A stretch of 64,000 nt of DNA from Escherichia coli (GTDB taxonomy: Bacteria > Pseudomonadota > Gammaproteobacteria > Enterobacterales > Enterobacteriaceae). The DNA lies in assembly GCF_048403405.1 (NCBI RefSeq), contig NZ_CP183129.1; one strand, 5' to 3'. Shown piece after piece: positions 18,001 to 21,000 of this stretch. Made by a program: the position numbers. The number at the start of each line of letters is the position of its first letter. Position 1 is the stretch's first letter.

Positions 18001-21000
18001 TTCAGACATATTTGGGTTATCAATAATGAAAAAAAAATCCCTGAGCAGCTAAAAAATAAAAAAAATGTATATTTTGTTTCAAGGCAAAGTGATTTATACA
18101 TGCAATGTTTGGCATCATGTGAATTTTTGATAAATAATGTTAGTTTTCCTGAGTATTTTATAAGAAAGAAAGGGCAGCGATATTTAAATACTTGGCATGG
18201 AACTCCTATAAAATTTCTTGGAAAAGATATTAAAGATGAATTTTTAGCACATAAAAATGTGGCTAGAAATTTCCTTCACACAACACATTTACTTAGTCCT
18301 AATACACACACAACTAATATTTTATTAGATAGGTATGATATATCTAATATATTTAGTGGGGAAATTAAAGAGTTAGGTTATCCTCGCATTGACCGGACTA
18401 TTAATCTTAGCTCTGAACGGAAGGAATATATACGTAGGAAAATTAATGCGAACGTTTACGATAAAGTAGTCTTGTATGCTCCAACTTGGAGAGGAATACA
18501 TGGAAAGGCAACTTTAGATATAGAAAAACTAAAGAACGATCTTGAAAAGTTGGCTGACCAGGATTGTCATATCGTTTTCCGTGGTCATCATATGATCGAA
18601 AAATTAGTAAGTGAGCAGAATATTTCTGGTATAACAATTGTTCCTTCTGAGATTGACACGAATGAGTTACTAGGGGCGATTGATATTCTTATCACAGATT
18701 ATTCAAGTATTGCTTTCGATTTTTTTGTAATGAATAGACCAGTAATTTACTATGCGTATGATATTGAGCAATATAATAATGAGAGAGGGTTGTATTTTCC
18801 TCTAAATGAATTACCTGGAACCGTTTGTTTTAATGATGTAGAGTTACTTAACACGTTAAGTGGATATCTTCGTAATGAAATATATTTCGATGCATCTAAA
18901 GGTATTGATAAGTTTTGTAAAAATGATGATGGAAGTGTATGTGGAAAAGTAATTGAATGGTTCTTCTTTGAAGAAAAATCCATATTGCTTAATAAAAACA
19001 AAAATAAAAATATACTTTTTTATATTGGTCCATTTATTCCAAATGGTATATTGTCATCATGGCTAAATCTTATATCGGTAATTGATCGTGATAAATATAA
19101 TATTTCTTTGGTTGTTGACCCAAAATTAATTCATGGTTTTCAAGAACGGTTCGAGCAGTTTAAGAGAGTCTCTCCAGATATTCAAGTCATTGGAACTTGT
19201 GGAAACATGCTTTATAATATTGAAGAGAAATGGCTTAATGATAAATTAAATAATCAATTCACCCTGGCAAGTAAGGAAATGTATGATATTCTTGATCATG
19301 CTTACCAACGAGAGTTTTTAAGGCTCTTTGGCTATAGTCATATTGATCATCTAATCCATTTTGAAGGTTATAATCAATCTTGGGTTATCCGGTTTGCTAA
19401 TGCTCCGAAAGATACAGTTAGAAATAAAATAATATTTCAACATAATGATAAGTTGAGCGAGTGGAGAGAAAGATTTCCATATCTTAGAGTTGTTTTTGAT
19501 TTTTATAAATCTTACAATAAAATTGTTTCTGTTTCTGAAAAAACGATGGAGTTGAACAGAGATAACTTAAGCGAATTTTTTAATATTGAGCATGATAAGT
19601 TTATTTATTGTGATAATGTTCAGAATCCAGATGAGGTGATTAAAAAATCTGATGATATTGATACAAGTGGATTTATTTTTGAAAATGATAAAATCTACTT
19701 TATAACTTTGGGCAGACTTTCAGTCGAAAAAGATCAACAAAAGTTGATTAATGCCTTTTGCAGATTACAAAAATTATATCCTAATATTGAGTTATTAATT
19801 CTTGGAGACGGCCCCCTCAAGATTGATTTACAACGCCAGATTATAACTTTAGGACTTGAAAAATCCGTACATCTTCTGGGACGCATATCAAATCCTTTTC
19901 CACTGCTAAAGAGAGCTGACTGTTTTGTCCTCTCTTCAAATCATGAAGGGCAACCTATGGTTCTTTTCGAAGCAATGATTCTAGATAAACCTATAATATC
20001 AACTGACATTACTGGTTCTAGAAGTGCTCTTGAAGGGCGTTCTGGTGTATTAGTTGAAAATAGTGTAGACGGTCTCTTCAACGGAATGCGGGACTTTATC
20101 TTGGGAAGGTTGGAGTTTAAACATTTTGACATTGAATCTTATCAAAAAAATGCTTTGTCGATGTTTTATGAAAAATGCCTTCATTAAAGCATTAATCTAT
20201 ATCATGATCGTCAAGAACCATTGATTGATTTGTAAGGAGGTATACCTCCTTACAAATTAAAGTAAATTTAGTTAAGTTAATAAATAATTATGAATAAGAC
20301 AGTTTTACATATTAACAGTAATATAACCACAGATGAAATTAGTTTATTGTTGCAGGCATCCAAGTATAAATATATTCATTTTGAAATAATTGGGAAAGGT
20401 GATTCATGTAAAAATTTAATTGAGTTTTCATATCATGATTATAATAAAAAAAAACAATTAATTGCTTTAACTAATGCTGGTTTTATGTCGTACGTTCATC
20501 GTGGAAATGTAACTTCATTGGTTCACTTTGATGAGATAAAAAACCTCTGGATTCCAGTAAAAGAAAAAAAGTTTTCTATTAATTCTGATGGGATTGTATA
20601 TACGTTACAACGGGCTGCATGCAAAATAAATGAAAAGCTACTGATTGTTTTCTCTCAGATGCCAATTGAACCATATTCTGCAAGCTTGTACAGATATTTT
20701 GCAAAAAACTTTTCTACAATTGATAAATATATTGGAAAAAATGTTTCTATATTAAGAGTGGCTGATATCGGAGGAATTACTGGCTCATTTTACTTAAATA
20801 CAAATGCATTACCAACCAATGCTGATAAAATTAAAAGCCTTATATTAGAAGTTATTGAACAATGTCAAATAAAATCAGATGATGTCGTACTTTATGGATG
20901 CTCAAAAGGAGGTACGGCAGCCGTTTATCATGGATTAACTAATAATTATAAAATAGTAGCGGTGGATCCTATATTAAATGATGAACATTATATAAATAAT

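What the first reader, a model, noticed from the sequence alone, without database searches (positions are those of the whole stretch)
20229..20256. Perfect 28-bp palindrome inside the region 2 operon
TTTGTAAGGAGGTATACCTCCTTACAAA is exactly self-complementary, sits in the short gap between the polymerase gene and the next gene, and contains an AGGAGG Shine-Dalgarno-like sequence on each arm. It could be an intra-operon RNA hairpin that sequesters a ribosome-binding site or a protein-binding operator.
Basis: seen in the sequence. Interest (0 to 1): 0.4.

Follow-up and report, generated by a model that had tools for sequence, protein, structure and literature searches.

The report
Hairpin between two K2 capsule genes
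The palindrome is real and encodes a very stable RNA hairpin in the spacer between two capsule-synthesis genes of the E. coli K2 capsule operon. Related capsule loci carry a hairpin at the same spot, where it looks like an internal transcription terminator. It is not the ribosome-binding site of the next gene, so this is an ordinary kind of intra-operon element.

Summary
The perfect palindrome is 30 bp (20228-20257), and 36 nt if one G.U pair is allowed. No simulated sequence reached this arm length.

The window is the E. coli K2 group 2 capsule locus (CFT073 type). The palindrome lies in the 102-nt spacer between the 1266-aa TagF-like polymerase gene and an XcbB/CpsF-family gene. Both sit in the serotype-specific region 2, which is transcribed from the kpsM promoter under the RfaH antiterminator (JUMPstart/ops at 13164-13202).

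It occurs once per genome, only in K2 loci (140 of 5426 complete genomes), and never varies.

Orthologous loci settle the interpretation. The four lineages with a 93-117 nt spacer here form one clade, and each has a hairpin 25-32 nt upstream of the downstream start codon. The hairpin sequences have diverged, with one compensatory pair change. The Citrobacter hairpin is followed by a T-rich tail and the L006 hairpin by a T8 run, like intrinsic terminators. E. coli has a longer stem and no T tract. Six outgroup lineages have no spacer.

The AGGAGG lies 49 nt from the next ATG and has no start codon nearby, so it is an orphan Shine-Dalgarno (SD) sequence locked in the stem.

Most likely this is an intercistronic RNA hairpin, derived from a terminator and acting as a decay or processing barrier. 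Operator and RBS-sequestering readings are not supported. Interest is low.

The parts
20228..20257 (+). Perfect 30-bp palindrome. In the mRNA it forms a stem-loop with a UAUA loop.
20225..20260 (+). Longest inverted repeat: 18-nt arms with one G.T mismatch at G20227/T20258, which would be a G.U pair only in + strand RNA. The predicted RNA stem uses 16 of these pairs, 20225-20240 with 20245-20260. The F11 lineage breaks the outer pair T20226-A20259.
20233..20241 (+). Orphan Shine-Dalgarno sequence UAAGGAGGU in the 5' arm. It is the strongest anti-SD match in the whole kpsM-region 2 transcript (-13.2 kcal/mol), but no start codon follows it.
20244..20252 (+). 3' arm ACCUCCUUA. It is identical to the 3' terminal 9 nt of E. 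coli 16S rRNA (own knowledge) and pairs with the orphan SD.
   Evidence: established knowledge of the 16S rRNA 3' end
20188..20289 (+). 102-nt untranslated spacer between the polymerase gene and the XcbB/CpsF gene. No promoter-like or terminator-like site is called on the + strand.
16387..20187 (+). Upstream gene: 1266-aa capsule polymerase with TPR, TagF-like glycerophosphotransferase and GT1 domains.
20290..21318 (+). Downstream gene: XcbB/CpsF-family protein. Its start has no SD (aataaataattATG).
13164..13202 (+). JUMPstart/ops element upstream of kpsM. It marks the RfaH-dependent read-through transcript that contains the hairpin.

Best explanation
The palindrome encodes a stable intercistronic RNA stem-loop in the RfaH-dependent kpsMT-region 2 mRNA of the E. 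coli K2 capsule locus.

**Origin.** It descends from a hairpin that arose together with a ~100-nt spacer in the common ancestor of the K2-like loci of E. coli, Citrobacter and two uncultured lineages. In two of those relatives the hairpin still has the form of an intrinsic terminator (stem plus U-rich tail). In E. coli K2 the stem has lengthened to 15-16 bp and the U tract is gone.

**Proposed action.** In E. coli it most likely no longer terminates efficiently. It would instead act as a structural barrier in the mRNA: a pause or weak attenuation site for RNA polymerase, and above all a block to 3'-to-5' exonucleases or a processing site. That would uncouple the level of the upstream block (cytidylyltransferase, LicD-like protein, polymerase) from the downstream block (XcbB/CpsF-like protein and a hypothetical protein).

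**The AGGAGG.** It is an orphan SD. It forms the G+C-rich core of the stem and is kept paired, and it is not the RBS of the next gene.

**Shown:** the palindrome, its non-randomness, its location, the operon context, the clade-wide hairpin with a terminator-like form in relatives, and the lack of a nearby start codon.

**Inferred:** that it acts as RNA, and how it affects transcript level.
For: - **Palindrome and fold.** Perfect 30-bp palindrome, beyond all simulations. RNA hairpin dG -21.6, z -6.2. The whole spacer folds at z -4.6 to -4.7.
- **Locus identity.** The locus is E. coli K2 (CFT073, O6:K2:H1 and O2:K2:H1 strains).
- **Operon context.** JUMPstart RF01707 at 13164-13202, 53.6 bits. 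The review PMC8960920 states that PR3 transcription reads into region 2 through RfaH. The ops core GGCGGTAG is also present 33-40 nt upstream of kpsM in the Citrobacter-type loci.
- **Single origin of the spacer.** In the XcbB tree the four spacer-bearing loci form one clade. Six outgroup lineages have overlapping or 7-19 nt junctions.
- **Hairpin in every spacer.** All four spacers carry a hairpin 25-32 nt upstream of the start codon and fold better than most shuffles: 0/300, 7/300, 0/300 and 10/300 shuffles reach the observed energy.
- **Terminator form in relatives.** The Citrobacter homologue GAAAGGAGGtgctcCCTCCTTTC+ATCTTTATTT is called terminator-like on the + strand, with 0 expected. The L006 hairpin is followed by T8.
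- **Covariation.** There is one compensatory pair change, E. coli U20233:A20252 against Citrobacter A:U. This comes from direct reading.
- **No mosaic boundary.** Flanking genes are 60-88% identical in protein throughout, so the junction is not a recombination seam, and the rest of the spacer is not alignable.
- **Invariance.** The core is unchanged in 140 of 140 K2 genomes.
Against: - There is no U tract after the E. coli stem, so the terminator scan does not call it. Any transcript-level effect in E. coli is inference only.
- No transcript data (3' ends, Northern blots) were available.
- Only four independent lineages carry the spacer and only one compensatory change was seen, so covariation support is thin.
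- The L007 hairpin uses a different 3' partner and may not be strictly homologous.
- Within-E. coli invariance is uninformative: K2 loci differ by only 1-2%, so about 0.5 SNP is expected in 30 nt.
- RfaH-modified polymerase is expected to ignore weak pause or termination signals.
Confidence: 0.5

Rival explanations
1. Functionless relic. The hairpin is a decayed internal terminator whose U tract has mutated away. Its perfect symmetry was produced by hairpin-templated (quasipalindrome template-switch) mutation rather than by selection, and it has no measurable effect on K2 capsule expression.
For: The T tract is lost in E. coli and L007 but present in Citrobacter and L006. E. coli has A where Citrobacter has T in the tail. 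Only E. coli has perfect symmetry that includes the loop. K2 population diversity is too low to show purifying selection. Template-switch perfection of inverted repeats is an established mutational process in E. coli (own knowledge).
Against: A spacer of 93-117 nt with a hairpin has persisted in four lineages whose proteins are only 56-72% identical and whose spacers are otherwise unalignable. The outgroups show that the genes work well with no spacer. A useless 100-nt spacer would be expected to erode.
Confidence: 0.25
2. Ribosome-directed element. The orphan perfect SD (UAAGGAGGU), locked by a mimic of the 16S rRNA 3' end, controls translation of the SD-less downstream genes. It could act as a standby or decoy site for 30S subunits, or the hairpin could neutralise an anti-SD-like CCUCC that would otherwise interfere. 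This is the closest version of the first reader's RBS idea.
For: The 5' arm is the strongest anti-SD match in the operon, while the next two genes have no SD. All four lineages have an SD-like motif in the 5' arm: UAAGGAGGU, AAGGAGGUG, AAGGAGA and GAGAGGUG. In L007 an in-frame TTG lies in the hairpin loop 9 nt after GAGGUG, and the gene caller used it as the start.
Against: In E. coli the SD is 49 nt from the ATG, an in-frame stop intervenes, and no start codon lies 4-15 nt downstream on either strand. The SD sits in a -21.6 kcal/mol stem and would rarely be accessible. The family's conserved N-terminus MSSxVLN starts at the downstream ATG in L007. A shared AAGGAG can be explained by common descent plus pairing constraint on the only G+C-rich part of the stem.
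Confidence: 0.1
3. DNA-level site: an operator for a dimeric DNA-binding protein or a recombination site (Xer-like 11-6-11 layout, or abutted transposon ends).
For: Perfect dyad symmetry with no spacer. The 28-bp core can be read as 11+6+11. IS elements occur near K2-like loci.
Against: - The homologues are not DNA dyads: their loops are asymmetric and their arms differ.
- It is a single copy per genome. The 22-nt core was absent from about 100,000 species genomes and the 20-nt core from viral contigs. A 56-nt query gave no match in plasmids and only two weak partial matches (E 0.1) in phages.
- There is no promoter in the spacer and no regulator or recombinase gene in the locus.
- The arms do not resemble the dif consensus (own knowledge).
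- There is no divergence boundary at the site.
Confidence: 0.05

Closest known systems
Intra-operon terminator stem-loop between hlyA and hlyB in the RfaH-dependent hlyCABD operon of E. coli
   Same: A stem-loop in an intercistronic gap of an ops/JUMPstart-controlled virulence operon. It separates an upstream block from a downstream block, and RfaH is required to read through it (PMC9306574). The Citrobacter and L006 homologues of the K2 hairpin have the same hairpin-plus-T-tail form.
   Different: The E. coli K2 hairpin has no U tract. No transcript data exist for it. There is no sequence relationship.
Intercistronic mRNA-stabilising stem-loops (the malE-malF REP hairpins of E. coli, the puf operon hairpins of Rhodobacter, the papA 3' stem-loop)
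   Same: A stable hairpin, without terminator function, inside a polycistronic mRNA. Such hairpins can protect the upstream segment from 3' exonucleases and so set unequal expression of neighbouring cistrons (own knowledge).
   Different: It is not a member of a repeated family such as REP: there is one copy per genome, found only in K2 loci. The effect on mRNA decay is untested.
SD-sequestering hairpins (translational operators, RNA thermometers)
   Same: An SD sequence paired with a CCUCC-type anti-SD in a hairpin.
   Different: Those elements lie directly upstream of the regulated start codon. Here the SD is 49 nt away and no start codon is within reach.
STAB-SD of Bacillus thuringiensis cry3A mRNA (GAAAGGAGG)
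   Same: An SD sequence that is not used for initiation. The Citrobacter 5' arm is literally GAAAGGAGG.
   Different: STAB-SD is single-stranded and close to the 5' end, and it works by 30S binding against a 5' exonuclease that E. coli lacks (own knowledge; the topic is listed). Here the SD is buried in a stem in the middle of an operon.

Membership tests
Intrinsic (Rho-independent) terminator | Stable stem-loop in the nascent RNA | tested here: met
   16-bp stem, dG -21.6 kcal/mol
Intrinsic (Rho-independent) terminator | Run of U residues immediately 3' of the stem | tested here: not met
   The tail is UAAAGUAAAUUUAG and the scan gives no terminator call. The feature is met in the Citrobacter homologue, and a T8 run follows the L006 hairpin.
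Intrinsic (Rho-independent) terminator | RNA 3' ends generated at the site | not testable with these tools
   Needs Term-seq, 3' RACE or in vitro transcription
RBS-sequestering hairpin | SD sequence base-paired in a stem | tested here: met
   UAAGGAGGU lies in the 5' arm
RBS-sequestering hairpin | The SD lies about 4-12 nt upstream of the start codon of a real gene | tested here: not met
   49 nt to the ATG at 20290, an in-frame stop at 20281, and no ATG/GTG/TTG 4-15 nt downstream on either strand
Palindromic operator of a dimeric DNA-binding protein | Dyad symmetry in duplex DNA | tested here: met
   Perfect 30-bp palindrome
Palindromic operator of a dimeric DNA-binding protein | Dyad and half-site sequence conserved in orthologous loci | tested here: not met
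   Homologues have asymmetric loops of 5 nt or more and different outer arms
Palindromic operator of a dimeric DNA-binding protein | Overlaps or adjoins a promoter, with a cognate regulator | tested here: not met
   No + strand promoter-like site in 20188-20289. No regulator gene in the locus.
Intercistronic mRNA decay-barrier or processing hairpin | Stable hairpin in an untranslated gap inside one transcription unit | tested here: met
   Same-strand genes, no promoter or terminator call in the gap, and a JUMPstart-driven operon
Intercistronic mRNA decay-barrier or processing hairpin | Structure retained in orthologues despite sequence change | tested here: met
   Four lineages, one compensatory pair, and + strand-only G.U pairs. 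The support is thin because there are only four lineages.
Intercistronic mRNA decay-barrier or processing hairpin | Different steady-state levels of upstream and downstream mRNA segments that depend on the hairpin | not testable with these tools
   Needs Northern blots or qRT-PCR with arm mutants
REP/BIME-type repeated extragenic palindromes | Many copies per genome | tested here: not met
   One site per genome, only in 140 K2 genomes. The two 'places' reported per genome are the two strands of the same palindrome.

The most novel reading that the evidence does not exclude
The hairpin is not just a structural barrier but a ribosome-directed device. A perfect orphan SD (UAAGGAGGU) is paired to an exact copy of the 16S rRNA 3' end (ACCUCCUUA), and an SD-like 5' arm is conserved in all four lineages. 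This would transiently capture or release 30S subunits in an RfaH-coupled operon whose next two genes have no SD of their own, and so set their translation.
Probability: 0.07. Interest if true: 0.6.

Novelty: new member of a known kind. Interest (0 to 1): 0.25.

Why it matters
The K2 capsule is a virulence factor of uropathogenic E. coli such as CFT073 and several ST131 and ST73 strains. If the hairpin sets the ratio between the polymerase block and the two downstream genes, it would be a small cis-element that tunes capsule synthesis. It would also add an example of terminator-like structures kept inside RfaH-dependent operons, as in hlyCABD. The element is single-copy and lineage-restricted, and it is of a well-known general kind, so its wider significance is limited.

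Tried and rejected
- **Copies elsewhere.**
  - The 22-nt core GTAAGGAGGTATACCTCCTTAC had no match in about 100,000 species genomes.
  - The 20-nt core had none in viral contigs.
  - A 56-nt query had none in plasmids and only two weak partial hits in Acinetobacter phage records (E 0.1).
  - So it is not a dispersed repeat or a mobile-element end.
- **Rfam.** Nothing was found at the palindrome. The only real hit in 12000-31500 is JUMPstart. No Rfam family reached gathering score in the related loci, although the ops core is present there.
- **More spacer-bearing lineages.** A metagenome scan with the degenerate 3' end of the polymerase gene returned only E. coli K2 and L007-type copies plus unrelated hits. 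The genome scan with an XcbB profile added only spacer-less or distant loci.
- **MAFFT alignment of the four spacers.** It could not align the hairpins, so the structural comparison was done by hand and no covariation statistic was computed.
- **Recombination boundary at the palindrome.** Rejected. SNP density against the F11 lineage is uniform across region 2, and protein identity to Citrobacter is similar on both sides.
- **Small ORF started by the AGGAGG.** Rejected, because neither strand has a start codon in range.
- **Xer/dif-like 11-6-11 site and integron attC.** Rejected from memory of their consensus sequences. Not tested with a tool.
- **Second strong SD-like site at 20905.** It is the codons of the invariant SKGGT motif, not a signal.
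- **Literature.** Searches found no description of this hairpin.
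Full report
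**1. Observation**

The 28-mer TTTGTAAGGAGGTATACCTCCTTACAAA is at 20229-20256 and is exactly self-complementary. The perfect palindrome is one base longer on each side: 20228-20257, 30 bp, with 15-nt arms. The inverted repeat continues to 20225-20260 with a single G.T opposition.

No shuffle of the window contained the sequence even with 3 mismatches. In first-order Markov simulations the longest perfect arm was at most 13 nt in 200 simulations of region 2, and at most 11 nt in 40 simulations of the whole window. The feature is therefore real and not a chance event.

One correction to the finding is needed. The transcript strand has a single AGGAGG (20235-20240). The other arm reads CCUCCU.

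**2. Context**

The window is an E. coli group 2 capsule (kps) locus of serotype K2.
- The junction region is 99.8-99.9% identical to CFT073, ATCC 25922 and strains typed O6:K2:H1 and O2:K2:H1. It is present in 140 of 5426 complete E. coli genomes.
- The gene order is:
  - gsp genes;
  - kpsM and kpsT (region 3);
  - five region 2 genes at 30% G+C, against more than 50% in the flanks;
  - region 1 genes (annotated as capsule biosynthesis and export proteins, kdsB and KpsE) and a KpsF-type isomerase, on the opposite strand.
- The five region 2 genes are a cytidylyltransferase, a TPR/LicD-like protein, a 1266-aa polymerase (TPR + TagF-like glycerophosphotransferase + GT1 domains), an XcbB/CpsF-family protein and a hypothetical protein.
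- The palindrome lies in the 102-nt gap between the polymerase gene (ends 20187) and the XcbB/CpsF gene (starts 20290).
- A JUMPstart/ops element lies at 13164-13202, about 30 nt before kpsM (Rfam RF01707, 53.6 bits).
- According to the review PMC8960920, transcription from the region 3 promoter reads into region 2 only with the RfaH antiterminator loaded at this ops site.

The palindrome therefore sits inside an RfaH-dependent polycistronic transcript.

**3. The thing itself**
- **Fold.** As + strand RNA the region folds into a 16-bp stem (including G20227.U20258) with a UAUA loop, dG -21.6 kcal/mol and z -6.2. The complementary strand gives a shorter 13-bp stem.
- **Not a terminator.** The tail after the stem, UAAAGUAAAUUUAG, is not U-rich, and the terminator scan does not call the site. 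No + strand promoter-like site is called in the spacer either.
- **Orphan SD.**
  - The 5' arm contains UAAGGAGGU, the strongest match to the anti-SD anywhere in the kpsM-region 2 transcript (-13.2 kcal/mol).
  - The 3' arm ACCUCCUUA is the same as the 3' end of 16S rRNA (own knowledge).
  - The AGGAGG ends 49 nt before the ATG at 20290, and an in-frame stop lies at 20281.
  - No ATG, GTG or TTG lies 4-15 nt downstream of the AGGAGG on either strand.
  - It is therefore not the RBS of the next gene or of any small ORF. The next two genes have no SD at all.
- **Single copy.**
  - It is found once per genome, only in K2 loci.
  - The 22-nt core was absent from about 100,000 species-representative genomes and the 20-nt core from viral contigs.
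  - A 56-nt query found nothing in plasmids and only two weak partial hits in phages.

**4. Comparative evidence**

Homologues of the XcbB/CpsF protein lead to syntenic K2-like loci with the same gene order. These come from Citrobacter (L003-L005), two uncultured lineages (L006, L007), Rahnella, Atlantibacter and several metagenomic contigs.

*One origin for the spacer.* In a neighbour-joining tree of XcbB, the four lineages with a long polymerase-xcbB spacer form one clade: E. coli 102 nt, Citrobacter 95 nt, L006 93 nt and L007 about 117 nt after correcting the start codon. The six outgroup lineages examined have overlapping genes or gaps of 7-19 nt. The spacer therefore arose once.

*A hairpin in every spacer.* MAFFT cannot align the spacers, and the flanking proteins are only 56-72% identical. 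Yet each spacer carries a hairpin ending 25-32 nt before the start codon.

| Lineage | Hairpin | Tail after the stem |
|---|---|---|
| E. coli K2 | AUUUGUAAGGAGG-uaua-CCUCCUUACAAAU | No U tract |
| Citrobacter | GAAAGGAGG-ugcuc-CCUCCUUUC | AUCUUUAUUU; called terminator-like, 0 expected |
| L006 | AAAGGA...UCCUUU | U8 |
| L007 | GAGGUGCAUCCAC-gcuuguau-GUGGUUGCAUCUC | No U tract |

*Folding against shuffles.* All four spacers fold better than most shuffles: 0/300, 7/300, 0/300 and 10/300 shuffles reach the observed energy.

*Covariation and strand.* Nine stem pairs correspond between E. coli and Citrobacter. Eight are identical and one has changed on both sides (U20233:A20252 against A:U). The G.U pairs in the E. 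coli extension and in the L007 stem are permitted only in + strand RNA. This pattern favours a hairpin that acts as + strand RNA over a duplex-DNA protein site. Four lineages and one compensatory change remain thin support.

*No seam at the site.* There is no recombination boundary at the palindrome. SNP density against the F11-type K2 lineage is uniform, and identity to Citrobacter is similar on both sides.

*Variation within E. coli.* The core is invariant in 140 of 140 genomes. The F11 lineage has two substitutions just 3' of it, and one breaks an outer pair. With 1-2% divergence this invariance carries little weight.

**5. Mechanism**

The best-supported reading is an intercistronic RNA stem-loop descended from an internal terminator-type hairpin. 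In Citrobacter and L006 the hairpin-plus-T-tail form suggests conditional termination inside an ops-controlled operon. The ops core is present upstream of kpsM there too.

This is the arrangement known for the hlyA-hlyB terminator of the RfaH-dependent hly operon (PMC9306574). In E. coli K2 the stem is longer and the U tract is lost, so efficient intrinsic termination is unlikely. I infer that it acts mainly as a pause or decay barrier, or as a processing site, that uncouples the abundance of the upstream and downstream mRNA segments. My confidence is about 0.5 that it is a functional RNA hairpin of this general kind. The exact sub-mechanism is open.

The rivals are:
- **Functionless relic (0.25).** A decayed terminator made perfect by template-switch mutation.
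- **Ribosome-directed role of the orphan SD/anti-SD pair (0.1).** It is encouraged by the SD-like 5' arm in all four lineages and by the SD-less downstream genes. It is weakened by the missing start codon and the very stable pairing.
- **DNA-level operator or recombination site (0.05).** It is contradicted by the non-symmetric homologues, the single copy, and the lack of a promoter or regulator.

**6. Comparison with known elements, and novelty**

It works most like intra-operon terminator or stabiliser hairpins (hlyA-hlyB; malE-malF; puf). For membership of specific families:
- It fails the U-tract criterion for an intrinsic terminator in E. coli.
- It fails the start-codon-proximity criterion for an RBS-sequestering hairpin.
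- It fails the copy-number criterion for REP elements.
- It fails the conservation and promoter criteria for an operator.

I found no description of this hairpin in the searchable literature on K2 or kps regulation. It is a new, lineage-restricted member of a familiar class.

**7. Verdict**

The one slightly unusual aspect is the perfect orphan SD paired to a copy of the 16S 3' end, in an operon whose following genes lack SDs. That is worth a toeprint experiment, but it is most simply explained by descent and by pairing constraint on the only G+C-rich part of the stem.

Noticed in passing
window 53790-53819: A second perfect 30-bp palindrome, TCGATCACGGTTTGGCCAAACCGTGATCGA, with 15-nt arms like the K2 one. 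It is intergenic, about 850 nt upstream of a YfjI-family gene. The surrounding 1.3 kb occurs in 1915 of 5426 E. coli genomes.
   Followed up: partly
window 20260-20292 and 21294-21326: The XcbB/CpsF gene and the following hypothetical gene have no recognisable Shine-Dalgarno sequence (aataaataattATG and tttaaataatATG), unlike kpsT and the polymerase gene.
   Followed up: partly
window 13164-13202: JUMPstart/ops element (GGCGGTAGCATA) about 30 nt upstream of kpsM, Rfam RF01707 at 53.6 bits. The ops core lies at the same place in the Citrobacter-type loci, although the Rfam gathering search did not report it there.
   Followed up: yes
window 20905-20915: A second strong SD-like sequence, AAAGGAGGTAC, lies inside the XcbB/CpsF gene. 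It encodes the family's invariant S-K-G-G-T motif, so it is a coding constraint rather than a signal.
   Followed up: yes
L003 and L005 (Citrobacter-type K2-like loci): The region 3 + region 2 block is 99.95% identical between L003 and L005, but it is joined to region 1 genes that are only 78-82% identical. This indicates exchange of the serotype block between backgrounds. L003 also carries DDE transposase genes beside the locus and within it.
   Followed up: partly
L007 3375-3413 (also L046, L063): The gene caller's TTG start for the XcbB homologue lies in the loop of the homologous hairpin, 9 nt after GAGGUG and in frame. The conserved N-terminus MSSSVLN begins at an ATG 39 nt further on, which has its own GAGGUGA.
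   Followed up: partly
window 52179-52206 and 48974-48998: Two short perfect hairpins, with 13-nt and 12-nt arms and 1-2 nt between the arms, close to ORF ends. They may be terminators.
   Followed up: no
window 14675-22319: Region 2 has about 30% G+C against more than 50% in the flanking kps and gsp genes. The Citrobacter orthologue has the same low G+C (31.5%). This is consistent with foreign origin of the whole block.
   Followed up: partly
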